Shown: in pieces, positions 1 through 35,226 of the stretch | Position numbering within the stretch: position 1 is the first letter of the stretch | Layout of the letters: the number at the start of each line of letters is the position of its first letter | Assembly (NCBI GenBank): GCA_963799845.1 | Contig: CAWCYI010000006.1 | Coordinates: forward strand, 32,001 to 96,000 | Length of the DNA stretch: 64,000 bases | Source: an uncultured Nitrososphaerota archaeon | GTDB taxonomy: Archaea > Thermoproteota > Nitrososphaeria > Nitrososphaerales > CADDZS01 | Reading direction: 5' to 3' | Notes under the pieces: model-generated | The model's input: the letters and a program-made list of their open reading frames with translations, nothing else | Told to the model about the DNA's origin: nothing | Database searches by the model: none | Translations under genes and position numbers: made by a program

Positions 1-1548
1 TTCAAACCAGACCTCGGCCTCGACCCTCGCGTCAACTCTAGGACTCTTCGCGGGGATCTTGTAATTGTCTACTGCCTTGCTAATACTCTCCAAATCTAGA
101 TCTGAGAAACCGGTCCCAACCTTGGTCGTGGTTCGAAAGATGTCAGGGCCTTCATCATAGGCCGCAAGAAGAAACGCCCCGTAGACGCCGGCCCGCCTGC
201 CCATGCCGTGATTTGCTCCCACCACAACGAGATCGATTGTGTCTCTCATGTTAGGGCGATATTCTGGCTTGAATTTGATCCACGCATAGCCTCTTGCGCC
301 TGCCTTGTAGGGGCTCGCAAGATCCTTCACCACGAGCCCTTCGCAACCCGTCGCGAGCGACTCTTCCATCAGGGCGTCAATTTCAGCTCCATTCTTTACG
401 ACACTTGCCGGAACTAGCATCATGTTGTGCTTGGTTTTCGCTCCTCGGAACAACTTTTCGAGGGCCGAGCGTCTTTCATCGTACCTTTTATCGATCATCG
501 GTTCTTTCTCGATGAGAAGAATGTCGAACAGGTTCAGCACCACAGGGTACTTTTCCTGAGCCTCCTTGAGATCATATTTGCGCCTTCGGTGCATCAGTTC
601 TTGAAAAGGGAGATATTTTCCATTTGGATCTATCGCGACAGCTTCTCCCTCCACGATGAACTGCTTTGCCGGCAGGCTTTCGAGGGCCTCGACGACATCC
701 GAATATTGATCTGTGATCCTTTCTAATCTTCTCGAAAAAAGCGTCACGTTTCCTTCTGCAGTTTTATGTGCCTGGACCCGCTCGCCGTCCAACTTGTATT
801 CCGCAGAAGCTTTGCCATTCATCTGATCGATTATCAATTCGGCGCTTTCCATTCGTTCCGCGAGCATCGGCCGCACAGGTTTGTCCGCGGTGACTTTCAC
901 TTCCTCGACGGCCTTCATTCCTCGATTTGCCAAAAGGTCGGCGACGAAACCGAGATCACTCGTCAAATTATAAGCAAGCTCCAGTTTTATCCGGTTTTCC
1001 TTGCTCCCGGTAAATGCGATGGAAAGAGCATCCAGAACCGTAAAGTCGGCAACGCCGAGCCGCAATTTTCCAGTAACAAATCGTATCAAGAACTTAGCTT
1101 CGAGGCTCGAAGCGGAATTTAAAAGCGTGGAAAGCATCTTCAGTCTGGTTAGAGCAGAGCCGGAACCAGAAGTCTTCGCGATTAGCTCCAATGCGGAGTA
1201 GACATTTTCGACGGTGAGTTTTCCCGAAGAAAACGACTGCTGCTCTCTCGAAATTAACAGCTCAGCCGCGACGTCCCCAAGATCGCCAGTTTTTCTCATT
1301 AATTCTTGAATCTTCTTGGGATCTGCACCGTACGCTTTCTCGATAGCCTTTCCGGCAGTTTTTTCGGCCATGCCGATCTCGATTCCAACAAAGTCAGGAT
1401 ACAACTTTCCTTGGGTTAGATAGGAAACGCGAGAGACGAGCTTGTTCGGGGTCTTTTTCAAAACGTCGACCAAGATTGCGGTTAGTTCCGTCCTCGAAGA
1501 GGTTTTGGTCATCTTGTCAAATGCATTCGCCAATACCGCAAAGTCCAT
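1..1548 (-). CDS. lig: ATP-dependent DNA ligase (3' end runs off the window)
   Basis: Not in the ORF track because no stop lies in the window. Manual translation from ATG at 1548 gives MDFAVLANAFDKMTKTSSR..., active-site AEYKLDGERVQAH at about 770-803, and VDARVEAEVWFE at the window edge, all in one frame. Confidence 0.95.
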   Translation of the reverse strand, partial: MDFAVLANAFDKMTKTSSRTELTAILVDVLKKTPNKLVSRVSYLTQGKLYPDFVGIEIGMAEKTAGKAIEKAYGADPKKIQELMRKTGDLGDVAAELLISREQQSFSSGKLTVENVYSALELIAKTSGSGSALTRLKMLSTLLNSASSLEAKFLIRFVTGKLRLGVADFTVLDALSIAFTGSKENRIKLELAYNLTSDLGFVADLLANRGMKAVEEVKVTADKPVRPMLAERMESAELIIDQMNGKASAEYKLDGERVQAHKTAEGNVTLFSRRLERITDQYSDVVEALESLPAKQFIVEGEAVAIDPNGKYLPFQELMHRRRKYDLKEAQEKYPVVLNLFDILLIEKEPMIDKRYDERRSALEKLFRGAKTKHNMMLVPASVVKNGAEIDALMEESLATGCEGLVVKDLASPYKAGARGYAWIKFKPEYRPNMRDTIDLVVVGANHGMGRRAGVYGAFLLAAYDEGPDIFRTTTKVGTGFSDLDLESISKAVDNYKIPAKSPRVDARVEAEVWFE

Positions 1549-3500: not shown

Positions 3501-3614
3501 GCAAAGTACCTTCGGTTCCTTTTTGCCGCAGGGATCCGATTCGTTCTTCTTTCGTTTGTTTTATCCCTAAAGCCATTAATCGTCTTCTAGGACTTTAGAA
3601 CGGAGTTTTGAATC

Positions 3615-4442
3615 TTGTCAGCGAACGGAGGCGAACTAATCTCTCTTGGGGACAGAGTCCTCCTCTACCTTGATTCCCGCAGAACGTGGCTCGTTCAACT
3701 GAAAGAAGGAGTGGAAACTTTCCACACGCATGCGGGCATCGTAGACTTGAAGAAAATACCAGGGATGAAATTTGGCGACGTCATCCAGACCACTCTCGAT
3801 GAAACAATTTGCCTCCTCAAACCCACGGTTCTAGATTTCATCATGAAATCCGAGCGGCGAACGCAAATCGTCTATCCTAAGGACTTCGCTTACATCGCGG
3901 CGAGATGCGGTCTTCATTCCGGAGATCATGTGATAGAATGCGGTACGGGTTCTGGAGCTCTGACATCCTTTTTTGCAAACATCGTAGCGCCGACGGGTTT
4001 CGTTCGGACGTTTGAACAGAGGGAAGATTTTTTCGAAATAGCGGGGAAGAATATCGAAAAAGCAGGGATGCGACCTTTTGTCAAAATGGAGATGGCAAAT
4101 CTCCTCGGTTCATCGCTAGAAGCTCAATTTTATGATCTAGCTATGCTCGATACAGGTGACCCGTGGACCCTTCTCGAGACCGCTCACGCATCTCTCAAAG
4201 GTTCGGGATTCGTATTTTGCATCTGCCCAACGACAAATCAGCTTGAGAACGTTGCCTTCGCGATGGAGGGCAAGTTTGTGGATATCGAGTGCATTGAGAT
4301 CATGTTTCGACGAATTGAAGCGCGAGTCGGGAAAACGAGGCCCTCAACTAGGATGATAGGACATACATGCTATTTGGCCTCGGGGCGGAAAGTCAACAGC
4401 CGCGTTGAAAATGTTATATCATCTGATAAAATGGAAGAATAA
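3615..4442 (+). CDS. trmI: tRNA (adenine-N1)-methyltransferase TrmI/Gcd14
   Basis: FHTHAG, RRTQIVYPKD, ECGTGSGALT, TRPSTRMIGHT motifs. Confidence 0.93.
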   Translation: MSANGGELISLGDRVLLYLDSRRTWLVQLKEGVETFHTHAGIVDLKKIPGMKFGDVIQTTLDETICLLKPTVLDFIMKSERRTQIVYPKDFAYIAARCGLHSGDHVIECGTGSGALTSFFANIVAPTGFVRTFEQREDFFEIAGKNIEKAGMRPFVKMEMANLLGSSLEAQFYDLAMLDTGDPWTLLETAHASLKGSGFVFCICPTTNQLENVAFAMEGKFVDIECIEIMFRRIEARVGKTRPSTRMIGHTCYLASGRKVNSRVENVISSDKMEE

Positions 4443-24466: not shown

Positions 24467-25864
24467 CTAGCCGACAGATCCAATCATTTCTAACTGGATG
24501 AGTCTGTTTAACTCTACGGCGTATTCCATCGGAAGTTCTTTGGTGAATGGTTCGAGAAAGCCCATGACTATCATGCTCAGCGCATCGGACTCGTTCAGTC
24601 CTCGGCTCATGAGGTAGAACATTGCTTCCTCGCTGATCTTCCCGACGGTTGCTTCGTGGGTCGTATTCGCAGATTGCTCCTCGATCTCGTTGTATGGATA
24701 GGTATCGGTCCTGGACTTCTCATCGAGCAACAGCGCGTCACACCTGACGCTTGACTTTACTCCCGGCAATCCCTTGTCCACGTGGAGCATCCCCCGGTAG
24801 GTGGTCTGACCGCCGTCCTTGCTGACAGACTTGCTCGTGATCCTCGACGTCGTGTAGGGAGCGCGGTGGTAAATCTTTGCTCCGGCATCCTGGTGCTGAC
24901 CCGCTCCAGAAAACGCAATCGACAAGACCTCGCCCTTTGCTCTCGGTCCGACGAGGTAGATGGACGGATACTTCATCGTCAACCGACTGCCCAGGTTTCC
25001 GTCGACCCATTCGACGGTCGCGTCCTCGTACGCATACGCCCTCTTGGTGACGAGGTTGTAAACGTCCTTCGACCAGTTCTGGATTGTGGTATACCTCACC
25101 TTTGCACCCTTTTTCGCGATAATCTCGACGACGGCCGAGTGCAACGACTCAGATGAGTAGATTGGCGCGGTGCATCCTTCGATATAGTGGACCTCTGATC
25201 CGGGCTCTGCAATGATCAGAGTCCTTTCAAACTGTCCAATGTTTTTGCCGTTGATTCTAAAGTATGCCTGTAAAGGAACGTCTACTTTCACGCCAGCCGG
25301 AATGTGGACGAAACTGCCACCGCTCCAGACTGCAGTGTTCAGTGCTGCAAATTTGTTGTCGTTTGGCGGAATGATCGTTCCAAAATATCGCTTCATGACA
25401 TCCGGATATTCTTTCAGGGCAGAGTCCGTGTCAAGGAATATGACGCCCTTTTTCCCAAGGTCTTCCCTCAGAGAGTGGTAGACAACTTCAGACTCGTACT
25501 GCGCTCCGACTCCCCCGAGGAACTTGCGCTCGGCTTCGGGAATGCCCAGCTTGTCGAAGGTCTTCCTGATGTTTTCCGGGACATCCTTCCAGTCGGTCCC
25601 CATCTTTTCAGTCGGTTTCGAGTAGTAGAAAATGTTGTCAAAGTCGATCTTCGAAAGATCGCCGCCCCAACTAGGCATTGGACGATCCATGAAATAATCG
25701 TAAGCTTTCAGGCGGATGTTCTTCATCCACTCTGGCTCGTTCTTCATCTTCGAGATTTCTTCGACGGTTGCTCGCGTCAGACCTCTCTTGGACTTGAATA
25801 CCAGATCCTCGGGATCCCTGAAGTCGTACTTGCTGTAATCTTCATTGAAAACTTGCGTAGTCAT
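24467..25864 (-). CDS. sufB: SufB
   Basis: [30 protein letters not shown]. Confidence 0.97.
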
Positions 25865-25877
25865 ACCCGATCGGATA

Positions 25878-25893
25878 TATGACGTATGTTATA
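25878..25893. promoter_or_regulatory. Operator-like site upstream of sufB (TATGACGTATGTTATA)
   Basis: Identical 16-mer at 35211-35226 upstream of sufC. Dyad ATRAC-N4-GTYAT, next to a TATA-like TTATTA on the minus strand. Confidence 0.75.
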
Positions 25894-25915
25894 TCTAATA
25901 AGCCTTGTGACGCGA

Positions 25916-26459
25916 GGTTCTGTAACGTCTTAGGTGGGCAGGTAAGGAGAGTGAGCTGAAAAATATGTTGCAAACTACGCCCTTTCTTTTATTTGACGGC
26001 AACTGTGCTGAAGCAATGACATTTTACCACGAATGTCTTGGCGGAGAATTAACCCTGACAAAACTTGGAGACACTCCCATGAAAGATCAATTCCCAAAAG
26101 AAAAGCATGAGAGAATGATTAACGCTCATCTCAAAAGTGGAGCAATTGAAATTTCTGCAACAGATTGGATGGCATCTCCCGCATTTCTGCCTAAGCAGGG
26201 CAACACTTATGCGATCTTTGTTGTTGGCGGAGCGTATGACGAGCTGAAAGCAGTGTTTGATAAGCTGGCAGTAGGAGCAGAAAAGGAAAGGTTTCAAGAA
26301 TTGCATGATTTGCCATTTGGAACGTATGGACAGTTTTATGACAAATATGGTGTTCAGTGGATTTTCAAGGGAGATAAACGACAGTCCTGATCATTAATTA
26401 TCTGCCGATTTGTTACAAGGAGAAGTTTATGCTTGATCAGCCGTGAACGTTACAGAACC
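25916..26459. mobile_element. 544-bp non-autonomous cassette with perfect 13-bp inverted ends and 8-bp flanking duplication, carrying a VOC gene
   Basis: TGACGCGA-[GGTTCTGTAACGT...ACGTTACAGAACC]-TGACGCGA, followed at once by GGTTCTGTATAAT (26468-26480). GGTTCTGT ends and 8-bp duplications resemble the IS6 family. Confidence 0.8.
25965..26390 (+). CDS. VOC/glyoxalase family, PhnB-like protein
   Basis: TPFLLFDGNCAEAMTFYHECLGG...PFGTYGQFYDKYGVQW. Confidence 0.92.
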   Translation: MLQTTPFLLFDGNCAEAMTFYHECLGGELTLTKLGDTPMKDQFPKEKHERMINAHLKSGAIEISATDWMASPAFLPKQGNTYAIFVVGGAYDELKAVFDKLAVGAEKERFQELHDLPFGTYGQFYDKYGVQWIFKGDKRQS

Positions 26460-26534
26460 TGACGCGAGGTTCTGTATAATCTTCGCGGGGTCGAGGTCAA
26501 TTTTGAAGGTGTGTAAAGTCGATGGGTCTTCCCT

Positions 26535-26933
26535 TTAGCAGGTAATGAAAATGCTCTCTTCGCCAGATAAAGAAGTTCCACTCACTGACCATACGAAAAC
26601 ATTGACGCTGTAGTTTCCATACGCCAAGGTTATGACCAGATATGAAGTTACATTTTGTTCTTGTGCCGCGATAATTGTCGAAGTTGAAACTTCAAGCGTC
26701 TGTCCAATCGAATTATGGAATACACCAATCACAATTCCAGCGATTGAAACATTTTCCGTGTATCTAAGCGGTACTGTCATCGTCTTGTATTCACCGAGTG
26801 CCGAGCTGTAAGGTGTTGTTTGAGTAAACATGAATGGGCTGATGTAAGGCTGATCGGAGTTCTCGAAAAGCTGGATACCCATTCCAGAAATTAGTAATAT
26901 CACGAAAATTCTGGCTAAATTTGATAATATCAT
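26535..26933 (-). CDS. Secreted or membrane-anchored beta-rich protein
   Basis: N-terminal hydrophobic stretch and Ig-like C-terminus (GNYSVNVFVWS). Confidence 0.6.
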   Translation of the reverse strand: MILSNLARIFVILLISGMGIQLFENSDQPYISPFMFTQTTPYSSALGEYKTMTVPLRYTENVSIAGIVIGVFHNSIGQTLEVSTSTIIAAQEQNVTSYLVITLAYGNYSVNVFVWSVSGTSLSGEESIFITC

Positions 26934-26991
26934 ATACTCGGCTCTATGATTAACATTGGCCTTTCTCCTTAGCGGTCAGGGATCGGAACCC

Positions 26992-27278
26992 TTAGTCTCC
27001 TAGTAGAATTTCCCAAGGTTCGATCTTAATAGTTTTCAAAACGTCAATTGGAGTCCACGGATCGTCAGCTAACCATGTCTCGAGGGTCTTTTGGTTTTCT
27101 GTATTGAAAATTAGTAAGATCCTTTTGCCGTCGCCAATTGGGCCTCCTAGAATTACAAAACCTTTGCCCAAAGAGTTCCCATGTAATCAGAGTGTTGAGT
27201 AAATTGCTTCTGCTCGTTCATTGGTAGTGACTCATTCCACGCCGAACCATGTTCCCTTGTAACTGCGAAGTACTTCAT
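26992..27278 (-). pseudogene. YciI-family protein with a 1-nt deletion near 27170
   Basis: Manual translation MKYFAVTREHGSAWNESLPMNEQKQFTQHSDYMGTL / GKGFVILGGPIGDGKRILLIF...LADDPW...IEPWEILLGD*. Missed by the ORF track. Confidence 0.8.
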
Positions 27279-27413
27279 GTTGGAATTTCTTACACCTCAT
27301 GGAGCCACAAAAGCTCTTTCGCCAAACTATCCTTTCAGGGATCAGAACCGTTCAGGCATGAAGTACTATCCGGTCGGGAGTAAAAGCCGGTCAGGGATGA
27401 AATGCGATTAACA

Positions 27414-27611
27414 TCATTTTGGTCGAAAGTATGCTCTAATTTGATCGGTTAGATGTGAGGAGGACTTTGAGCGTTGAAAGATTGCGGCCATGATCACGCC
27501 TTGTTCGGAGAGGTACATCAACAAATTTTTCGAGTTCTTTCTTATCAAGACGACCGACACACTTGCTTCGGTGACTTCACCAACGGGTAGGGGTTCCAGT
27601 TTCACTATCAA
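27414..27611 (-). CDS. Possible small hypothetical protein
   Basis: 65-aa ORF only, with no recognisable motif. Confidence 0.25.
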   Translation of the reverse strand: MIVKLEPLPVGEVTEASVSVVLIRKNSKNLLMYLSEQGVIMAAIFQRSKSSSHLTDQIRAYFRPK

Positions 27612-27820
27612 ATACGTTGCTTCAAATTAAGTGGGTCTAGGGTCGCTTTTTCCAATTCAAGCAGTATTCAATACCCAATCGAATTGGAAGAGAAGAACAT
27701 CGTGACCTAGATATTTGACTCTTGGTCAATAGCTCTTGCCAAGATTATTGAGTGAGAAAAAAAGAAGAAAAGATGGATGGAGTCGAGGCCATTCACCCAA
27801 CTCCGATTAAGTTCTGTTAC

Positions 27821-29182
27821 CTAGGCTCCAGAGGTGCTTGTTTCTGACGATGTTGCAGTTGTCGTCGTTGCATCGCTTGAAGTCGTAGTTGATGTCACGG
27901 TAGTGGTCGTCTGACTAGTGGTTGTTGTAGAGCTCGTTTCACTGATCGAAGTCGATGTTGCCGTGTTAGTCGCAGAGGTTGTGGAGATTACTTCGCCGCT
28001 TGTACTCGAGATAGTCAACGATCCACCAGCTGTTAGTGCAGTCTGCGCGTCCCTTCCGCTACCGAGAACTGTGACGATGTATTTCTGTCCCGAAAGTATT
28101 CCCTGAATCGGTGTCTGTCCTTGGTATAGCCGGAAAGCTCCCATGGTAATTTGCCCGTTGTACGTGAATGTTTCGCTAGATCCTGGTGCCAATGTGAATC
28201 CAGAGAGTGCCAGTGTCTGGTAAGCTCCTTGCTTGCTCGAAGCTGACAGCGCAAGGAGGCTTCCGTTCGACGCCGCAATGAAGAACTCTGAATTCCTCGA
28301 GATCGGCCCGATTGCGGAACTAGGTACCCAACCGCCGCTCTTAGTAGAGGTCGAAGTTAGAGCGATCATTCGGAAGACGATTGTCGCGTTTCCGGTGTTT
28401 TGTACCGTTACACTCAGAGAGCCCTGGTTCAAGCTGGCCGAAGTGATCTCGAATTTTGTCGTGTACCATGTTGCAACCGCTATGTTGCTCTTGAGGTCGT
28501 TTCTATCGCCTACGCGCGGATGATTTGCTATTGAGTTTGCTGCAAGAGTGTATCCGTTGGCTGCTGGGATGAAGGCAAATGTTGGGTCAGTAGTGTTTCC
28601 CAATAGAAGGACTGTTGGAGTCATGTCAATCATAGCTCCGGTCGTCTGTCCGTCTGAGACAATTATTCCTCCTGGGATCCAAACGTAGAGGGTGTGATCT
28701 TGGTAGACGAGATCTGCAGTGTAGTTAGTTCCCTGGAAAGTGACAACAGCTGAGGTCACGTTGAATCTCAGTCCGTTGAAATTCCCGGAAGATATGTTTG
28801 CAGAGGCGATCGTCTGGCTCTCATTGACTATGCTCATGAGGTCAATTTCGCCTGATGTTTGGAGATCTGTCCAACCAGTCTGATTTCCTGCTTGGCTGAA
28901 GTGGACTTCCATGCTGCTGTAGTTGATGTAGACTGCTGTTACGCCATCCGGCACTGTTGGTGGGTCCGTCATCAGGACCGCAAGAGTCCCAGATCCGCTT
29001 TGATTTGGCGTGTTTGTGCTTTGACTTGACGGGCTCGCGCTGGAACTGCTGGTACTTATCGTCGTACCAGAAGATGAACTCCCATTCACCAGTCCCGGCG
29101 TGAATACTGCTGCACCTATCAGCGCCACAGCGATTACCGCTGCTAAGACGCCAGATACAAGTACTTTGTTTTTCATATTCAT
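27821..29182 (-). CDS. Secreted DUF4382-like protein with Ser/Thr-rich linkers
   Basis: Signal or anchor helix, LAVLMTDPP...VYINYSSMEVH, many NxS/T sequons, Thr-rich tail. Confidence 0.8.
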   Translation of the reverse strand: MNMKNKVLVSGVLAAVIAVALIGAAVFTPGLVNGSSSSGTTISTSSSSASPSSQSTNTPNQSGSGTLAVLMTDPPTVPDGVTAVYINYSSMEVHFSQAGNQTGWTDLQTSGEIDLMSIVNESQTIASANISSGNFNGLRFNVTSAVVTFQGTNYTADLVYQDHTLYVWIPGGIIVSDGQTTGAMIDMTPTVLLLGNTTDPTFAFIPAANGYTLAANSIANHPRVGDRNDLKSNIAVATWYTTKFEITSASLNQGSLSVTVQNTGNATIVFRMIALTSTSTKSGGWVPSSAIGPISRNSEFFIAASNGSLLALSASSKQGAYQTLALSGFTLAPGSSETFTYNGQITMGAFRLYQGQTPIQGILSGQKYIVTVLGSGRDAQTALTAGGSLTISSTSGEVISTTSATNTATSTSISETSSTTTTSQTTTTVTSTTTSSDATTTTATSSETSTSGA

Positions 29183-29761
29183 GTTACTGCGTTCACTTGA
29201 CCCCCATGATTTCCGATGATGATATTAGAAACAGCGTTCTTGAACAGCACGTTTAGGCAAATGACTAGCATGTTCAAATTGTTGAACAGAAAATTCGTTA
29301 GCGATCCCTATCATACAGCTTTTGGATCAAAAAACGACCTGGGAACGCCATCAGTACGGGGGAACCATGTCGATAGATTATTGATTCGAATACTCGAGCT
29401 ATATCGGACTACGATGTATGCCCTAATCTGTATCTGAGCCCTCGAATCCGAAATCATCTGTATCAAAAACCACGAATAATGTTCAATTCGTGATCACCGC
29501 CGAGTCTACTTTTTTCAAAATCCAGGCCCGCGCCTAAATGAAAAGCAGAATTGTCCGCAAGGTGTTTTAGAGCGGTTTGGGACAGACGAATTTCCTCATC
29601 AATACGGTACATCTATGACACGGAATATTCTTACTCGGAGCGTTATTTGATATCCTGTTTTTCGAATTGAGTTTATCCCTGACTAGTACTGCTCTATAGC
29701 AGGGAAGGAAGCAAAAAGAAAAATTTTAACAAAAAAGAAGGGAGGGGAACTAAAAATGTCC

Positions 29762-31000
29762 CTAAGTTACGGTGAAGGAAGTTGTCCCGATTCCGGTAGT
29801 ATAACCTGACGCCGAGGCCGTTATCTGAACGTGATATGTTCCAGCAACTCTTGGAATAACGTAGCTGAAGACGGCTTCGCCATTTGAGCCAGTGTTGACA
29901 TGTCCTGTAGCTTGTTGTCCGTTGGGCAGAGTTACGACTGCTGTGACCGATGCTGCAACTCCACTACCGTCGTAAGATACAGTTACGGATATCAGAGCTT
30001 CTTCACTAGGTCTGTAGGTCTGTTGGTTTGTCGAGACCGTAACGACCAACTGATGAGTGGAGGTTGAGGTAGTCGTACTGGTTATGGTTGTCGTACTTGT
30101 AGCGGTCGTAGTAGTCGAGGGGCTTGTTGTGGTCGAAGAGTGAGTAGTCGTGGTGGTGGATGTCCCTGATTCATAGGTATTTGTGAACGAGGTGCCATCA
30201 CCAGTGAGAGCTGAAGTAAGAGAAATTACATTGTTGTTTGAATTGACCATGTTGATCTGGTTCACGGCCGCCCCAAATTTAGAGATGACGCCACTTGCAC
30301 CGTCTACGGTTGCATAACCCGAACTAGATGAGCTGTGTGTATAATCCTGCCCAAGGTATGCTACCCCAAAGTTAGCGAGAGGTAGGACGCCACCGGAGGA
30401 TGAGGGAGCTTCCACGATCCATTCAGCAGAGCTGTCTGACGCCGAAGGAAGGTTCGCGCCTGTTGAGGATGATGCACCTGTATTCTCGTTAGTAAGAGTC
30501 GTTGTGTAGGTATTTCCCGATTTAGAGACTTGTGCGTAGAAGACTTGACCTGGCGTTACCGTGACAGATCCTATCTCATACATTGGATTGGGATAGAATT
30601 CGTACCAAGCATAATAGTACGCACTGCCGCCGCTGCAGTACGCGAGCGTTCCGGTCTGTTCAACTGTGTCGGAAGAGTAGCCATCGATACCGACCCATGT
30701 TGCGACATAGGCAGTTTGTGATGAACAGGTAACGGCTGGCTGAATCCACGTGCCGACGACATCAGAGACATCTGAACCGACAACAGCATAGCCGGCCCAG
30801 TTCGTGCTTTCGACCGTATTACGGATTCCGAGCGGAGTTTCACTGGAAGTGCTATGAGTACGAATGATCGGATGGCTGTGAGCCTTGGTCGACTGCGCAA
30901 ATGATGGGAATGAGAGATTTAACAAAAGGATAGCCAGAATAAAACACATTATTAATGCTGGAAAAAGGATACGTTTTCGTTTAGGCGGGATGTACATCAA
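29762..31000 (-). CDS. Secreted G1 (eqolisin-type) glutamic endopeptidase with Thr linker and C-terminal Ig-like domain
   Basis: STNWAGY, WVGIDG, VEQTGT (catalytic Q), YAWYE, SAEWIVE (catalytic E). Confidence 0.92.
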   Translation of the reverse strand: MMYIPPKRKRILFPALIMCFILAILLLNLSFPSFAQSTKAHSHPIIRTHSTSSETPLGIRNTVESTNWAGYAVVGSDVSDVVGTWIQPAVTCSSQTAYVATWVGIDGYSSDTVEQTGTLAYCSGGSAYYYAWYEFYPNPMYEIGSVTVTPGQVFYAQVSKSGNTYTTTLTNENTGASSSTGANLPSASDSSAEWIVEAPSSSGGVLPLANFGVAYLGQDYTHSSSSSGYATVDGASGVISKFGAAVNQINMVNSNNNVISLTSALTGDGTSFTNTYESGTSTTTTTHSSTTTSPSTTTTATSTTTITSTTTSTSTHQLVVTVSTNQQTYRPSEEALISVTVSYDGSGVAASVTAVVTLPNGQQATGHVNTGSNGEAVFSYVIPRVAGTYHVQITASASGYTTGIGTTSFTVT

Positions 31001-31342
31001 TACATCAAGGCTAGACCTTGGAAGGAGCTTCTTATTTCTTGTCTATGTAGAATTAGGAAGAAATGTTGTCAAAAGGCGTTTAAGCGACTCATATCTCCAA
31101 GAGGGCCCGTTGGTGATTGAATACTCCTTTAGGCCAATCCATTGCATTAGCATTCTTATAAGAAATTACTGATAGCTTCTCCGAAAGAAATAGGCCCCCG
31201 TTTCGCAACCGAGAGACATAGGCGCTTGAATATTCTACCGTGAGTGGGTCAAACACGATCTTATTTTTGCAATAAGTCGATGGGCAGTATAACAAAATAA
31301 TTCCTGCCATAGAAATTTGTTCATTGGGAATTGGTCTAACAG

Positions 31343-32392
31343 TTGTCCCTGATCGGAAAAATTTCTCTTATCAAACAATTATTTCGCTCCATAGTCAACA
31401 AGGTTAGGCTGGGGGACTATTGGAGGAGCATCTGGAAGAAGCATGGCTATGGGTCAAGAAAGCTTTCAGAGGAAAAGGTGGTGTGGGTGGTCAAGGCTAG
31501 AGAGAGCGGCCTTGCAGCCAGGGATATCGCATCAACCCAGAACATCACCGTGAGAAGAGTGGAGCAGCTTTATGCCCAATACAGGGAATCCGGAGAGATA
31601 CCATCTCTCAAGAAGGCAGGCAGAAAAAGAATCGAGATCCCAATTGAGGAGAGGAATGCGATCATCGAAGCTTCAAGGAAGTTTGGCGTCGGAGCCTGCT
31701 ACCTCGTTTCAATCCTCAAGAGAGATTACGGCATCGATGAAACAAACCACATGCGAGTCTATAGCGTATTGAAGGAGGAAGGATTGTTGTACAATACAGC
31801 AAGGACGCGCTTCAAGCGCAAGTGGATCAGATATGAAAGGGAGCATTCCAATTCGTTGTGGCACGTCGATTGGCACGAGATGAAATCGTCAGTATACAGG
31901 GGCAAGTGGCTGGTAATCTACGAGGATGACGCATCGAGGTACATCCTGGGTTATGGCGTGTTTGACTCTCCGTCGTCTGAAAATGCAGTGAGCGTCCTGA
32001 AGGAAGCGATCAGGGAACATGGCAGACCAGCATCAATCCTCTCAGACAGAGGTACATCCTTCTATGCGGTCGAAGCTGAAACAAAAACGAAAGGTCTCAC
32101 TGAATTCGAGCTCTATCTGATGAGGAATCACATCAAACATATTCTTTCAAGAGTGAGACATCCCCAAACCAATGGAAAATTGGAGAAGCTCTTTGATACG
32201 GTTGAAAGAGGACTCGCGAAGGGATTCTCTCCGATTGAGGAGTGCGTACGCTGGTACAACTGCATCAAGCCCCACGGAGCCCTTGATCTGGAGAGAGCTG
32301 AAACTCCACTGGAAGCCTACTACAGGAAGATGGAAATAAAAGAGGAACTCATAGATCCTTCAATCATGTGGGAGAGCGAAATGATTCTTTGA
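31343..32392 (+). CDS. IS481/rve-type DDE transposase (true start lies inside the element)
   Basis: HTH, then RYEREHSNSLWHVDW, EDDASR, SDRG, HPQTNGKLEK. Confidence 0.92.
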   Translation: MSLIGKISLIKQLFRSIVNKVRLGDYWRSIWKKHGYGSRKLSEEKVVWVVKARESGLAARDIASTQNITVRRVEQLYAQYRESGEIPSLKKAGRKRIEIPIEERNAIIEASRKFGVGACYLVSILKRDYGIDETNHMRVYSVLKEEGLLYNTARTRFKRKWIRYEREHSNSLWHVDWHEMKSSVYRGKWLVIYEDDASRYILGYGVFDSPSSENAVSVLKEAIREHGRPASILSDRGTSFYAVEAETKTKGLTEFELYLMRNHIKHILSRVRHPQTNGKLEKLFDTVERGLAKGFSPIEECVRWYNCIKPHGALDLERAETPLEAYYRKMEIKEELIDPSIMWESEMIL

Positions 32393-32399
32393 TAGAACA
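31364..32399 (+). mobile_element. IS481-family insertion sequence, 1036 bp, 15-bp target duplication
   Basis: Imperfect ~27-bp TIRs (TCTCTTATCAAACAATTATTTCGCTC versus TGTTCTATCAAAGAATCATTTCGCTC). CTGATCGGAAAAATT occurs at 31349-31363 and 32400-32414. Confidence 0.92.
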
Positions 32400-32451
32400 C
32401 TGATCGGAAAAATTCGTAAAACCTAATAGATAGCCGATCGAGAAACTCTTC

Positions 32452-32742
32452 ATGCCGTTATATGTAACCCTCTTCAAATTCACCGAGCAAGGAAGAAAGA
32501 CGATCAAGGATTCTCCAAAGCGCGTCCGCGAAGCCTCTGCCGCGATTGAAAAAATGGGAGGCAAAGTCTTGCGAGTCGTGTATACTACAGGGCAGTATGA
32601 TCTAGTCGCATTTGTAGAGGGAAGCGAGGAGTTGGCTCTTACATTTGCCGCAGGAACGGCTTCGTTAGGGAACGTCGTCGGTGAAACCCTCCACGCATAT
32701 TCGATCGAAGAGTTTGAAAAGGCGCTGAGCAAAATCTCCTAG
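32452..32742 (+). CDS. GYD domain protein
   Basis: YVTLFKFTEQG...SPKR...GQYDLV...GNV..ETL. Confidence 0.88.
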   Translation: MPLYVTLFKFTEQGRKTIKDSPKRVREASAAIEKMGGKVLRVVYTTGQYDLVAFVEGSEELALTFAAGTASLGNVVGETLHAYSIEEFEKALSKIS

Positions 32743-32864
32743 CGCAACGAGAGTACCAATTTTCGATCCCTGACCACATCAATATTTCATTCCCGATCGA
32801 ATCCGGTAGAAAACAATTCTTTCCTGATGTCTAATTCCGGAGAATGCGCGGGATAAGTTAGTAG

Positions 32865-33254
32865 TTGAAAGCAAGTCGAGTTTTGCTCTCAATCCTTTTC
32901 GTATATATTTTCGCAGAAGTTTTTTTGAACTTCTCGCTCCTGGGAAGTGTGTTTGATATCGTCCATCAAGCCCCATTTTTTCAGGGAGTAATTCTAAATT
33001 TCTTTTACTGGAATCTAGGAAATGTTATCCTTGTCGTGATTACGGTATCTGTAATGTTTGTCGAGAAAGAACAGACCCTCTGGCGGAAAAAGACGATTTC
33101 ATCAGTCGAAAACTGGCCACGGAGAAGTACTACCGCGGAGCAGAGAATCTCTCTTTTATTAGATCATCTCGGTGAAGTCATTTTTTCTCCTCGTGAATGT
33201 TCATTCACCCTTCGAGAAATTTTCAATGATGGTAGTTTTGATGCTTATTCCTAG
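32865..33254 (+). CDS. Possible small membrane protein
   Basis: Two hydrophobic segments; the 3' end overlaps the convergent gene. Confidence 0.35.
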   Translation: MKASRVLLSILFVYIFAEVFLNFSLLGSVFDIVHQAPFFQGVILNFFYWNLGNVILVVITVSVMFVEKEQTLWRKKTISSVENWPRRSTTAEQRISLLLDHLGEVIFSPRECSFTLREIFNDGSFDAYS

Positions 33255-33959
33255 AACAATTTCTGACCTGTGGATCCGCATCTTGACCAGATCCCTATAT
33301 TTTTCCATGATTCTCCTTTCATTTTCGTTCTGGATCAAGAAAAATATCTCGATCACCCCAAGCTCGCTCACCGCGATCTCTATGTCGTCGAGCAATTCAA
33401 CGCTGTATCCCAAAATCGCGTAGGTCGAATATCGTTCTGTCCCGGCTCGGTCAAAGAAAGATTTGTAGCCACCGAAGACGGGCTTCGAAACGATCAGGTA
33501 ATACCCTGCTTTCCGCTGCTCCATCATCATTGGGAGTATCCCAAGAGTGCGCAGTTTGAGCATTTCAGAGTAAACCTTCGTTCCTTTGGCCATCCCCTCC
33601 ATCCTTTCCTTCTCGAGTTTCTCATTTACAGAGTCGAGCTCGACGGCAGTCTGTACTCTATTTTCAAATTGCCTTACAAGATGGACGTAGATGTTTGGGG
33701 CGACTCTTTTCATTTCAAATAAATGATCGGTGACCAGTTTCATTGCCCCGCAATTGTCATGAGTGATAATTCTAATTTCTGCAAAATTATTCTCAAGCAA
33801 CAATCTGTCAATTGTGTTTTTCAATCCGAACACGTTCGCGCCGGCGTTAGAAATGATGACGGTTTCTACATTGTCGAATTCCTTCAGCTTCTCCACTAGG
33901 CGTCTATCCATACAAGTTACGATCAACCTTTTCGACAAACAGTTAGCTTGCTCTTTCAT
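33201..33959 (-). CDS. Divergent beta-carbonic-anhydrase-like protein with C-terminal extension
   Basis: TCMDRR (CxDxR), SNAG, THDNCGA (HxxC) zinc ligands. Confidence 0.7.
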   Translation of the reverse strand: MKEQANCLSKRLIVTCMDRRLVEKLKEFDNVETVIISNAGANVFGLKNTIDRLLLENNFAEIRIITHDNCGAMKLVTDHLFEMKRVAPNIYVHLVRQFENRVQTAVELDSVNEKLEKERMEGMAKGTKVYSEMLKLRTLGILPMMMEQRKAGYYLIVSKPVFGGYKSFFDRAGTERYSTYAILGYSVELLDDIEIAVSELGVIEIFFLIQNENERRIMEKYRDLVKMRIHRSEIVLGISIKTTIIENFSKGE

Positions 33960-34043
33960 CGTCCTTGTAAAATCTGCGATAGAATAGGCTTGAGTTGAAA
34001 AGTTCTGAAAAGTTGCTTCCTTCGGAAGCTAATGAGATTATCA

Positions 34044-34313
34044 TTATTGAGCAGGAATTTGAGGTGTTCCGCACTCGGGGCAGTAGCCAGCAAAACGTGG
34101 CATACTCGTCCCGCATCTCGCGCAGGATTTTGATTGAGTATTCTGAGTTCCAGCTTGAACAGGAATAGCCGCTTGATTCTGAATCTTGCTCTTTGGGGCT
34201 TTCCTTCTTTCAAGAAACTGAAGACTGCCGTAAATTAGCAGGAAAAAGACCGAAAAGAATAGAACGAACAGAATCAGGATAGTTACAATGGGATGAGTCC
34301 CTATTACAGCCAT
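34044..34313 (-). CDS. Membrane-anchored zinc-ribbon protein
   Basis: TM helix then CARCG...YCPECG. Confidence 0.75.
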   Translation of the reverse strand: MAVIGTHPIVTILILFVLFFSVFFLLIYGSLQFLERRKAPKSKIQNQAAIPVQAGTQNTQSKSCARCGTSMPRFAGYCPECGTPQIPAQ

Positions 34314-34387
34314 GGGGAAATGTCAATAGACGAATTTGCGATTTAAGTTTTCATCGCGTACGACGAACAAGTTCGTAATTTTGGAGC

Positions 34388-35161
34388 TTACGCCATCGGG
34401 ATTGGCTCGGGCTCCTCGTCCGCGCCCTGAATCCAGCTGTAACCCAGCTCCTCAAGTTTGCTGGCCAGTTCCGGTCCACCAGATACAGCAATCTTTCCCT
34501 TTACGAGGACGTGCACAAACTGGGGCTTTACGTATCGCAAAATCCTCTGGTAGTGAGTAATCAAAAGGATTCCAATGTCGGAACTCTTGACCGAGTTTAT
34601 TCCATCGGAGACGAGCTTTAGGGCGTCGATGTCAAGCCCTGAGTCGGTTTCATCCAGAACCGCAAACTTGGGTCTCAGAACTGACAGCTGCACTACTTCC
34701 GCTTTCTTCTTTTCTCCGCCCGAAAATCCTTCATTGAGATATCTGGTGGCAAAGCTCCTCTCCATTCCGACGACCTCGAACTTGTCCTCTAAGAGTTTCC
34801 TGAAATCGCGGACGAGCATCGGTTCGTCCTTCCTCACCGCGTTGTAAGAAATTCTAAGAAAATTGGAAAGGCTGACCCCTGGTATCTCAAGGGGATACTG
34901 GAAGCCGAGAAACAGACCGTCTAGAGCCCTCTTGTTGGGAGGCAGGTCCTTGATGCTCTTTCCGTCGATTCTGATGTCTCCGGAAATCAACTTGTACTTC
35001 GGATGACCCATCAGAGTGTAGGCAAGCGTGCTCTTGCCAGATCCGTTCGGTCCCATGAAGGCGTGAATTTCGCCTGTCTTGACAGTCAGTGAGACTCCCT
35101 TCAGAATCTCCTTGTCCGCAATTCCCGCGTGAAGGTCGATAATTTCTAAACTGTGAACCAT
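34388..35161 (-). CDS. sufC: SufC ATPase
   Basis: MGPNGSGKSTL, FQYP, NEGFSGGEKK, DETDSGLDIDAL, ITHYQR. Confidence 0.97.
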   Translation of the reverse strand: MVHSLEIIDLHAGIADKEILKGVSLTVKTGEIHAFMGPNGSGKSTLAYTLMGHPKYKLISGDIRIDGKSIKDLPPNKRALDGLFLGFQYPLEIPGVSLSNFLRISYNAVRKDEPMLVRDFRKLLEDKFEVVGMERSFATRYLNEGFSGGEKKKAEVVQLSVLRPKFAVLDETDSGLDIDALKLVSDGINSVKSSDIGILLITHYQRILRYVKPQFVHVLVKGKIAVSGGPELASKLEELGYSWIQGADEEPEPIPMA

Positions 35162-35210: not shown

Positions 35211-35226
35211 TATGACGTATGTTATA
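35211..35226. promoter_or_regulatory. Operator-like site upstream of sufC, overlapping a TTTATAA TATA box (minus strand)
   Basis: Identical to 25878-25893. Confidence 0.75.

What the first reader, a model, noticed from the sequence alone, without database searches (positions are those of the whole stretch)
25908..26480. Transposase-free single-gene cassette stacked against a second related end: possible archaeal cassette-capture system
Seen: TGACGCGA|GGTTCTGTAACGT - VOC gene - ACGTTACAGAACC|TGACGCGA|GGTTCTGTATAAT. The 544-bp unit holds only the passenger gene, and its 8-bp target lay flush against a pre-existing GGTTCTGTA end. Known: IS6-family ends (e.g. IS257, GGTTCTGT...) make 8-bp duplications, and transposase-less mobile insertion cassettes are described mainly in bacteria. 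Inference: insertion was targeted or iterative, building an array at the island edge. Alternatively, an excised circle would carry a perfect 14-6-14 dyad (ACGTTACAGAACCT-GACGCG-AGGTTCTGTAACGT), like a tyrosine-recombinase site in an integron-like system. The cassette shows no obvious TATA box, while TTATAT at 25889 just outside it could drive it. No cognate enzyme lies in this window.
Basis: partly seen in the sequence, partly recalled or inferred. Interest (0 to 1): 0.75.

Follow-up and report, generated by a model that had tools for sequence, protein, structure and literature searches.

The report
VOC gene between insertion-sequence ends
A single bacterial-type gene in this soil archaeon sits between the two ends of an IS6-type jumping element that has lost its own transposase, so it is an ordinary, though rarely seen in archaea, hitch-hiking cassette and not a new gene-capture system.

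Summary
A 544-bp unit (25916-26459) has perfect 13-bp inverted ends, is flanked by the 8-bp repeat TGACGCGA, holds only a 141-aa VOC/PhnB gene, and abuts a third GGTTCTGTA end.

The integron-like, enzyme-less reading is not supported. The ends are those of an IS6-family insertion sequence with a SWIM + DDE_Tnp_IS240 transposase.
- Relatives of that transposase were found in 118 of 251 genomes of the order.
- All 10 intact copies examined have perfect 8-bp target duplications.
- A profile of 20 ends from public genomes picks the cassette's right end as the best hit in the whole 4.6-Mb genome.

Stacking against another end is typical of this group. Of 18 back-to-back end pairs in 15 genomes, 16 have an exactly 8-bp spacer.

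The cargo looks bacterial: its nearest relatives are Chloroflexota, at 84-90% aa identity.

No second copy, empty site or circle junction was found. The host assembly holds only transposase relics.

Best reading: a mobile insertion cassette, that is a non-autonomous IS derivative carrying a passenger gene. It is a new member of a known kind and of moderate interest.

The parts
24467..25864 (-). sufB, the flanking host gene; its start codon lies 52 bp from the cassette
   Evidence: PF01458 E 9.4e-86. Nearest named sources are Nitrososphaerales archaea.
25878..25902 (.). Conserved suf promoter region: the near-palindrome TATGACGTATGTTATA (25878-25893) and CTAATAAG (25895-25902). I infer CTAATAAG to be the sufB TATA box, read on the - strand.
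   Evidence: Conserved upstream of sufB in 8 of 11 relatives' loci read, and upstream of sufC in G000 and G006. Its role as operator or TATA box is inferred, not tested.
25908..25915 (.). Left copy of the 8-bp target-site duplication TGACGCGA
25916..25940 (+). Left IS end of the cassette. It keeps the terminal repeat only (13 nt perfect IR, about 25 nt IS-like); the subterminal repeat is missing.
   Evidence: The end profile matches model positions 1-25/26 weakly (E 2-3).
25953..26385 (+). Captured segment homologous to bacterial VOC/PhnB loci. It is essentially the ORF (25965-26390) plus 12 nt upstream.
   Evidence: blastn gives 84% nt identity to Ktedonobacteraceae/Chloroflexia MAG loci and 88% to a metagenome contig. 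Homology stops at these borders in all hits listed.
26393..26459 (-). Right IS end of the cassette, with the full architecture: terminal repeat plus subterminal repeat about 42 nt inside
   Evidence: Best hit in the whole genome of a profile of IS ends from relatives. E 1.8e-6 with 21 ends; E 1.3e-4 with the 20 public ends only. Model positions 1-66/67.
26460..26467 (.). Right copy of the target-site duplication TGACGCGA. It is also the 8-bp spacer to the next end.
26468..26530 (+). Truncated end of a second, different IS of the same family (terminal + subterminal repeat). No transposase follows it.
   Evidence: Homologous to G003:C55 and G003:C124 copies. End profile E 0.54-0.77, model positions 1-49/50.
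34388..35161 (-). sufC, separated from sufB by about 8.5 kb in this genome
   Evidence: tblastn with G006 sufC gives 88.8% identity. In G006 and in the sister genus, sufC ends directly upstream of the sufB promoter.

Best explanation
The 544-bp unit is a non-autonomous derivative of an archaeal IS6-family insertion sequence, i.e. a mobile insertion cassette. It consists of two IS ends (about 25 nt on the left, about 67 nt on the right) around a single passenger gene. That gene is a VOC/PhnB-type protein whose nearest relatives are bacterial (Chloroflexota).

Shown:
- The ends are IS ends of a family whose full-length members encode a SWIM-zinc-finger + DDE_Tnp_IS240 transposase and make 8-bp target duplications.
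- The unit is flanked by a perfect 8-bp duplication.
- It lies exactly 8 bp from the end of another, truncated element of the family.

Inferred:
- A transposase supplied in trans by a full-length copy joined both ends of the cassette to staggered cuts 8 bp apart in TGACGCGA. A closely matching full-length IS sits at almost the same spot in a congener.
- The resident end steered the reaction, as in end-targeted insertion of IS26, IS911 and IS30. That would explain why the target is the 8 bp touching the resident end.
- The assembly now holds only transposase relics, so the cassette is probably stranded.
- VOC expression is not shown. A TATA-like TTATAT/CTAATAAG about 25-30 nt upstream of the left end could drive it.
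For: 1. IS identity of the ends.
- In G001 (same genus, UNPUBLISHED) GGTTCTGTAACATCT... is followed by an 83-aa wHTH ORF and a 387-aa ORF. That ORF matches DDE_Tnp_IS240 (E 4.1e-16), SWIM (E 2.3e-7) and NCBIfam IS6 transposase (E 5.4e-33, 114 bits against a cut-off of 125).
- Public copies show the same: the L070 transposase matches DDE_Tnp_IS240 at E 7.1e-15.
- Relatives of the transposase occur in 118 of 251 genomes of the order.
- All 10 intact copies examined (2.1-3.2 kb) have GGTTCTGT... ends and perfect 8-bp duplications.
- The ends share a terminal plus subterminal repeat.
- A profile of these ends, built without any G000 sequence, finds window 26459-26393 as the best hit in the 4.6-Mb genome (E 1.8e-6; E 1.3e-4 without the unpublished end).

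2. Insertion by transposition. The 8-bp duplication is perfect and the 13/14-nt IR is perfect.

3. Stacking is a family habit.
- The pattern ACAGAACC-N(2..14)-GGTTCTGT gives 18 sites in 15 of 251 genomes. The spacer is 8 in 16 of them, 6 in one and 3 in one. The reversed control pattern hit 1 genome.
- In 8 of 16 8-bp junctions, this one included, one partner is a whole element flanked by the same 8 bp.

4. Passenger of foreign type.
- Homology to VOC loci is confined to 25953-26385.
- The best matches are Chloroflexia/Ktedonobacteraceae MAGs at 84-90% aa and up to 84% nt. Of the 80 best species-representative loci, 77 are bacterial.
- In a quick tree the protein sits among Chloroflexota, apart from the one Nitrososphaerota homologue. 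Support is weak (SH-aLRT 81-91, no starred branch).

5. Other non-autonomous relatives in the same genome.
- C6:336646-339016: 2371 bp, duplication AAAAAATC, no IS6 transposase, an IS110-type gene inside.
- C6:1582717-1583359: 643 bp.
Against: - Single copy. There is no other copy of these ends or of the cassette in the own genome or in 13 genomes of the family. None of 160 VOC loci from genome and metagenome collections has IS ends beside the gene; the 80 metagenome loci held 1 unrelated end-like match and the 80 genome loci none. An exact 22-mer scan of metagenome contigs found nothing. Movement as a cassette is therefore inferred from the duplication alone.
- The left end lacks the subterminal repeat that intact ends carry. 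The unit may not be a competent substrate in its present form.
- No intact cognate transposase is present in the assembly, which is 86.7% complete. Only relics were found: 23-72% identity over fragments, and PF13610 over cut-off only in a frame with 3 stops.
- The closest full-length IS and the 'same site' comparison rest on an unpublished genome (G001).
- Expression is not shown. The one RNA run laid covers only sufB (25698-25857).
Confidence: 0.6

Rival explanations
1. A full-length IS of this family inserted here and made the TGACGCGA duplication. Its interior (wHTH, transposase and extra ORFs) was later replaced in place by the VOC segment. On this view the unit never moved as a cassette.
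For: - A full-length IS with very similar ends sits 4 bp away from this position in congener G001 (UNPUBLISHED).
- The left end keeps only about 25 nt, without the subterminal repeat, as expected of a decayed copy.
- The cassette is single-copy everywhere searched.
- The genome holds several decayed relics of the family.
Against: - It needs a precise replacement of 2-3 kb by a 440-bp foreign ORF between two short IS ends at one locus. No homology that could guide this was seen.
- The insertion point and flanking 8 bp differ between G000 and G001, so the two are not one inherited insertion.
- Other transposase-less elements of the family with an intact duplication exist in the same genome (C6:336646-339016). 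Trans-mobilisation therefore seems to occur.
Confidence: 0.3
2. An integron-like or other site-specific system: a circular cassette carrying a 13-8-13 (or 14-6-14) dyad was integrated by a tyrosine recombinase at a half-site next to sufB.
For: - The joined ends would give a perfect dyad with an 8-bp spacer, the geometry of loxP/FRT-type sites (geometry recalled, not from a call).
- The direct repeat is 17 nt long.
Against: - The same ends bound DDE-transposase elements with 8-bp duplications of unrelated sequence in 10 of 10 intact copies. Spacers at 16 junctions are all different, whereas a recombinase core would be conserved.
- The ends lack the GTTRRRY core of attC (read; the motif itself is recalled).
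- The three Phage_integrase matches in the genome are on contigs C4, C7 and C2, none on the window's contig.
Confidence: 0.02
3. The repeats are native cis-elements of the suf locus (an operator or terminator hairpin duplicated locally), and the VOC gene is an ordinary resident gene.
For: - A GGTTCTGTAA motif lies 22 nt from the suf promoter palindrome in three genomes of the genus.
- The right junction can fold as a 10-6-10 hairpin (I16).
Against: - Each of those motifs has the two-repeat architecture of IS ends. The G001 one is followed by the transposase.
- The sister genus has the promoter without the motif.
- The VOC gene is absent from this position in all 32 relatives with a sufB match.
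Confidence: 0.03
4. Assembly chimera: a bacterial VOC read set was joined into an archaeal contig.
For: - The cargo is bacterial-like.
- The genome is a metagenome-type assembly with 4.87% contamination.
Against: - Independent Logan contigs of two runs span both junctions with 0 differences. The runs may be the source sample.
- The junctions are exact IS ends with a target duplication, which a chimera would not create.
Confidence: 0.02

Closest known systems
Mobile insertion cassettes (MICs), e.g. MIC231 of Bacillus cereus, derived from IS231. I saw only the reference and a one-line mention; the definition is recalled.
   Same: IS-type inverted ends around passenger gene(s), no transposase, flanked by the parent IS's target duplication, presumed to be moved in trans.
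   Different: - The parent is an archaeal IS6-type element, not IS4-family.
- The host is a Nitrososphaerales archaeon.
- Only one copy is known and trans-mobilisation is untested.
- The left end is shortened.
IS6 family (IS26, IS257, IS1216), as reviewed by Varani et al. 2021 (PMC7986276; passages read)
   Same: - 8-bp direct repeats.
- GG tips and a cTGTt motif in the IR.
- A DDE transposase matching DDE_Tnp_IS240.
- Two MITEs are listed for the family.
- Strong preference of IS26 for inserting next to a resident copy.
   Different: - The cognate elements here are 2.1-3.2 kb with extra ORFs and a SWIM zinc finger. The review places zinc-finger forms in Clostridia (clade h).
- The ends are about 65 nt with a subterminal repeat.
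- Stacked elements keep their own duplication and an 8-bp spacer, whereas IS26 targeted integration makes no duplication.
- Harmer and Hall 2019 (PMC6807381; abstract and passages) argue that archaeal and long forms should not be in IS6/IS26 proper.
End-targeted insertion of IS911 and IS30 (mentioned in PMC7986276; abstract of PMC9333248 in the listing)
   Same: One transposon end is joined to the flank of a resident IR, giving abutted ends separated by a fixed few base pairs.
   Different: - Those are copy-out-paste-in IS with 2-3-bp spacers. Here the spacer is 8 bp and the family is IS6-like.
- No circle junction was seen.
Integron gene cassettes
   Same: A single promoter-less gene bounded by imperfectly palindromic sequence, inserted next to a similar site.
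   Different: No attC core, no integrase, DDE-type target duplication, and no conserved crossover sequence.

Membership tests
IS6 family (ISfinder sense), for the parent element | DDE transposase of the IS6/IS240 type | tested here: met
   - G001 387-aa ORF: PF13610 E 4.1e-16; NF033587 E 5.4e-33 over model 1-202/202, but 114 bits against a cut-off of 125.
- Public L070 ORF: PF13610 E 7.1e-15.
IS6 family (ISfinder sense), for the parent element | 8-bp target-site duplication | tested here: met
   10 of 10 intact copies have one. The cassette's is TGACGCGA.
IS6 family (ISfinder sense), for the parent element | Short terminal IR with GG tips and a cTGTt motif (PMC7986276, passage) | tested here: met
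   Ends read GGTTCTGT[ACT]A... in the cassette and in relatives. The IR region is longer here (about 65 nt, two repeats).
IS6 family (ISfinder sense), for the parent element | Size about 700-900 bp with a single transposase ORF | tested here: not met
   The elements are 2.1-3.2 kb, with a 360-390-aa SWIM-bearing transposase and 1-2 further ORFs without a Pfam match.
IS6/IS26 family in the narrow sense of Harmer and Hall 2019 | Conserved H-HTH and catalytic-domain residues of the short bacterial transposases | not tested
   The authors exclude archaeal and long forms (abstract and passages). I did not align the residues.
IS6 family | Transposition through cointegrates (replicative or targeted conservative) | not testable with these tools
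Harmer and Hall report no experimental data for archaeal members.
Mobile insertion cassette | IS-type inverted ends at both borders | tested here: met
   13/14-nt perfect IR. The right end is the genome's best match to the end profile. The left end matches only the terminal repeat.
Mobile insertion cassette | No transposase; passenger gene(s) only | tested here: met
   The only ORFs of 50 aa or more are the 141-aa VOC gene and an 85-aa antisense ORF. Pfam finds VOC families only.
Mobile insertion cassette | Flanked by the parent IS's target duplication | tested here: met
   TGACGCGA on both sides.
Mobile insertion cassette | Moved in trans: several copies at different sites, or shown experimentally | tested here: not met
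   No second copy was found in the own genome, in 13 family genomes, beside the gene in 160 VOC loci or in an exact 22-mer scan of metagenome contigs.
Integron cassette / attC | attC with R''/R' core (RYYYAAC...GTTRRRY; recalled) and a linked IntI integrase | tested here: not met
   The ends read GGTTCTGTAACGT, with no GTTRRRY. There are 3 Phage_integrase matches in the genome, none on contig C6.
VOC / PhnB-like proteins (cargo) | Match to PF06983 / PF00903 over cut-off | tested here: met
   PF06983 28.2 bits (cut-off 24); PF00903 23.5 bits (cut-off 20.6). Solved relatives are 1u6l (E 2.6e-13) and PhnB 3oms (E 3.2e-4). YjdN equivalog scores 41.8 bits against a cut-off of 122, so the protein is not that equivalog.

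The most novel reading that the evidence does not exclude
End-directed stacking is a built-in property of this Nitrososphaerales IS6-like group. An incoming element would be joined exactly 8 bp outside a resident end, so elements, passenger-bearing forms and transposase-less cassettes pile up head to tail at one spot. Such a stack would act as a small gene-accretion site that can fix bacterial genes in archaeal chromosomes next to host promoters. Here the spot is the suf promoter region, where ends lie 22 nt from the promoter palindrome in three genomes.
Probability: 0.25. Interest if true: 0.6.

Novelty: new member of a known kind. Interest (0 to 1): 0.38.

Why it matters
It settles what looked like an enzyme-less cassette system. 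The unit is a defective IS6-type element with a passenger gene, and the parent element class is identified.

A 2019 survey of thaumarchaeal mobile elements stated that transposons carrying passenger genes had not been detected in archaea (PMC6563490; discussion passage). On that background this is a concrete, if single, example of a transposon-borne gene of bacterial type in Nitrososphaerales.

The wider pattern found on the way may interest people who study IS26-type targeted insertion. IS6-like elements with a SWIM transposase were found in 118 of 251 genomes of the order. They often carry extra ORFs, and their back-to-back ends were 8 bp apart in 16 of 18 cases. I found no description of this 8-bp stacking in the passages I read. 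That is not a search of the whole literature.

Tried and rejected
- Native-motif idea. I first thought GGTTCTGTAA might be a conserved suf promoter element, because it lies at the same 22-nt distance in G001 and G006. I dropped this once the G001 motif proved to be the end of an IS with a transposase and the ends showed the two-repeat IS architecture.\n- Structured RNA. Rfam on 25700-27300 gave 5 matches, all E 3.5 or worse and below gathering scores.\n- The genome's own IS6-like 221-aa elements (L017, L019) and 355-aa rve elements (L014-L016) have other ends. Instead I fetched the 16 junction loci. All complete elements there carry a transposase, so the frequency of transposase-less cassettes in the order is not measured.\n- A possible 422-bp unit in G003:C55 (GGTTCTGTAACGT ... 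ACGTTAAAGAAGC, 11 of 13, no duplication, 75-aa ORF without a Pfam match) is not convincing.\n- Reads. Only short Logan contigs were available. There were no joints, no empty site and no circle junction; with depth 2-7 this says little. The part 26262-26368 had no cover in the runs laid, which proves nothing. The RNA run covered only sufB.\n- No right-hand IS end was found for the 8.5-kb sufB-sufC insert (end profile).\n- The careful VOC tree did not finish in 290 s. The quick tree is reported.\n- search of earlier findings returned nothing in both look-ups.

Full report
THE OBSERVATION

The sequence is as described.
- TGACGCGA lies at 25908-25915 and at 26460-26467.
- GGTTCTGTAACGT lies at 25916-25928, and its exact complement at 26447-26459.
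- A third GGTTCTGTA lies at 26468-26476.
- The direct repeat is in fact 17 nt perfect, and 31 nt at 81%.

GGTTCTGTA occurs three times in the window against 0.32 expected; 0 of 100 shuffles reach three. The whole 4.6-Mb genome has 23 copies, about background, and only these three are clustered.

The 544-bp unit holds one credible gene, a 141-aa VOC/PhnB-like protein (25965-26390; PF06983 and PF00903 over cut-off). Logan contigs of two soil runs span both junctions without a difference. They may come from the source sample.

CONTEXT

The host is an archaeon. It has a partial archaeal SSU rRNA, and the nearest named SufB sources are Nitrososphaerales.

The unit lies 52 bp upstream of sufB (24467-25864, minus strand), just beyond a promoter region conserved in the family. 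That region consists of the near-palindrome TATGACGTATGTTATA (25878-25893) and CTAATAAG.

In a congener (G006) and in the sister genus, sufC ends directly upstream of this promoter. In this genome sufC lies 8.5 kb away at 34388-35161. The cassette therefore sits at the sufB-side edge of an 8.5-kb insert. The insert encodes, among others, two Ser/Thr-rich secreted proteins (DUF4382; Peptidase_A4), an rve-type transposase and a carbonic-anhydrase-like protein.

WHAT THE ENDS ARE

In congener G001 an end GGTTCTGTAACATCT... lies in the same intergenic spot, 4 bp nearer to CTAATAAG. G001 is UNPUBLISHED, and claims resting on it are marked as such. The end is followed by an 83-aa winged-helix ORF and a 387-aa ORF. 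That ORF carries a SWIM zinc finger and a DDE_Tnp_IS240 domain (E 4.1e-16). Its best NCBIfam match is the IS6 family transposase (E 5.4e-33, 114 bits against a cut-off of 125).

Relatives of this protein occur in 118 of 251 genomes sampled from the order. In public genomes the elements are 2.1-3.2 kb and begin and end with GGTTCTGT[ACT]A.... All 10 intact copies examined are flanked by perfect 8-bp duplications of unrelated sequence. One of them was checked and carries the same SWIM + DDE_Tnp_IS240 transposase.

Their ends are composite: a terminal repeat, and a second copy of the motif about 42 nt inside.

A profile of 21 such ends, none from this genome, finds the cassette's right end (26459 down to 26393) as the best hit in the whole genome (E 1.8e-6, model 1-67). 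Without the unpublished end it is still the best hit (E 1.3e-4). The third end (26468-26518) matches model positions 1-49 weakly (E 0.5-0.8). It is homologous over about 63 nt to two copies in congener G003. The left end matches only the terminal repeat (about 25 nt).

Eight-base duplications, GG tips and a cTGTt motif are the stated marks of IS6-family ends (PMC7986276; passages).

WHAT THE CARGO IS

Similarity to other VOC loci is confined to 25953-26385, that is the ORF plus 12 nt.
- The protein has more than 4500 relatives at E 0.001 or better, the best at 93% identity.
- Among species-representative genomes the best 80 loci are 77 bacterial and 3 archaeal. They are headed by Chloroflexia/Ktedonobacteraceae MAGs at 84-90% aa and up to 84% nt.
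- In metagenome contigs the best is 88% nt.
- A family relative (G011) has only a frameshifted copy at 73% nt, at another locus and without IS ends.
- In a quick tree the window's protein sits among Chloroflexota and apart from the one Nitrososphaerota homologue. Support is weak: SH-aLRT 81-91, 140 columns, and the careful search did not finish.

The cargo is thus a widely exchanged bacterial-type gene. None of the 160 loci has IS ends beside the gene; the only end-like match in them (1 among the 80 metagenome loci) is unrelated.

WHY IT SITS FLUSH AGAINST ANOTHER END

The pattern ACAGAACC-N(2..14)-GGTTCTGT gives 18 sites in 15 of 251 genomes. Sixteen have a spacer of exactly 8, one of 6 and one of 3. 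The reversed control pattern hit one genome.

In 8 of the 16 8-bp junctions, this one included, one partner is a complete element flanked on its far side by the same 8 bp. In the other seven that element is 2.1-3.2 kb. Six of these seven were checked for the transposase gene and carry it. Here it is the 544-bp cassette.

Insertion into the 8 bp that touch a resident end is therefore a habit of this group. It recalls the preference of IS26 for resident copies, and the end-targeted insertion of IS911 and IS30, in which one end is transferred to the flank of a resident end (PMC7986276; passages). It differs from the IS26 targeted conservative route, which makes no duplication.

MECHANISM, WITH WHAT IS SHOWN AND WHAT IS INFERRED

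Shown:
- IS-type ends and a perfect target duplication.
- The family's 8-bp stacking.
- A foreign-type cargo.
- The absence of an intact cognate transposase in the assembly. Only relics are present, and completeness is 86.7%.

Inferred:
- A transposase from a full-length copy acted in trans on the two ends and joined them to cuts 8 bp apart in TGACGCGA, guided by the resident end at 26468.

Open:
- Whether VOC was already inside when the element landed (a true mobile insertion cassette; my estimate 0.6), or replaced the interior of a full-length copy in place (0.3).
- For the first: the same genome has another transposase-less element of the family with an intact duplication (C6:336646-339016, with an IS110-type gene inside) and a 643-bp miniature.
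- For the second: the cassette is single-copy wherever I looked, and its left end has lost the subterminal repeat.

REJECTED READINGS

- Integron-like or tyrosine-recombinase site. The spacers differ at every junction, the duplications are of the DDE type, no attC core is present, and the three integrase-type genes lie on other contigs.
- Native suf cis-element. The motifs have IS-end architecture, and one is followed by the transposase.
- Structured RNA. Rfam finds nothing near threshold.
- Assembly chimera. Contigs from an independent assembler span both junctions.

COMPARISON AND NOVELTY

The unit works like a mobile insertion cassette. It meets three of that kind's four features and fails the fourth, evidence of movement in trans.

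The parent element meets the IS6 marks for enzyme, duplication and tips. It does not meet the family's size and single-ORF organisation, and archaeal and long forms are disputed members (PMC6807381).

A survey of thaumarchaeal mobile elements counted 244 IS in 13 families. It wrote that transposons with passenger genes had not been detected in archaea (PMC6563490; passages; supplements not opened).

I rate this a new member of a known kind, with interest 0.38. The 8-bp stacking of a widespread SWIM-bearing IS6-like group is the more interesting by-product.

Noticed in passing
window 25878-25915; L023 (G001) about 2360-2400; L003 (G006) about 634-672: IS6-like ends lie exactly 22 nt from the suf promoter palindrome TATGACRTATGTTATA in three genomes: G000 and G001 upstream of sufB, G006 upstream of sufC. 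The spacers and the end types differ between them. This may reflect target choice steered from the palindrome, or chance (n=3, and the genomes are kin). G001 is unpublished.
   Followed up: partly
251 genomes of the order: A SWIM + DDE_Tnp_IS240 (IS6-like) element of 2.1-3.2 kb has relatives in 118 of 251 genomes. It carries 1-2 extra ORFs without a Pfam match and has roughly 65-nt two-repeat ends. Back-to-back ends are 8 bp apart in 16 of 18 cases.
   Followed up: partly
window 26480-34388: An insert of about 8.5 kb separates sufB from sufC, which are adjacent in relatives. It encodes Ser/Thr-rich secreted proteins (DUF4382 at 27821-29182; Peptidase_A4 at 29762-31000), an rve-type transposase (31343-32392) and a carbonic-anhydrase-like ORF (33201-33959). 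No IS end was found at its sufC side.
   Followed up: partly
G000:C6:336646-339016 (outside the window; L254 647-3017): A 2371-bp element with IS6-like two-repeat ends and a perfect 8-bp duplication AAAAAATC. It has no IS6 transposase. It holds an IS110-family transposase gene (PF02371 E 2.1e-16) and a 205-aa ORF of no known family.
   Followed up: partly
G000:C6:1582717-1583359 (outside the window; L255): A 643-bp miniature element with both two-repeat ends (tips AGTTCTGTC) and no target duplication. It contains a 67-aa ORF without a Pfam match.
   Followed up: no
window 25878-25893 and 35211-35226; loci L003-L008: The near-palindrome TATGAC(A/G)TATGT(T/C)ATA is conserved upstream of sufB and sufC across the family. 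It is probably an operator of the suf genes.
   Followed up: no
L024 (G011:C101) 1677-2120: The family relative's VOC homologue is a pseudogene. The reading frame shifts several times, and it is 73% nt identical to the window's gene.
   Followed up: partly
window 27335-27400: A short repeat with copies in G000 C2:19409-19473 (80%) and C4:1249406-1249444 (85%). The latter lies near solo IS ends at C4:1249329 and C4:1249857.
   Followed up: no
L090 (G151:C1) 3572-3643: Two IS ends facing each other only 72 bp apart, directly beside an 8-bp junction. This may be a minimal end-to-end remnant.
   Followed up: no
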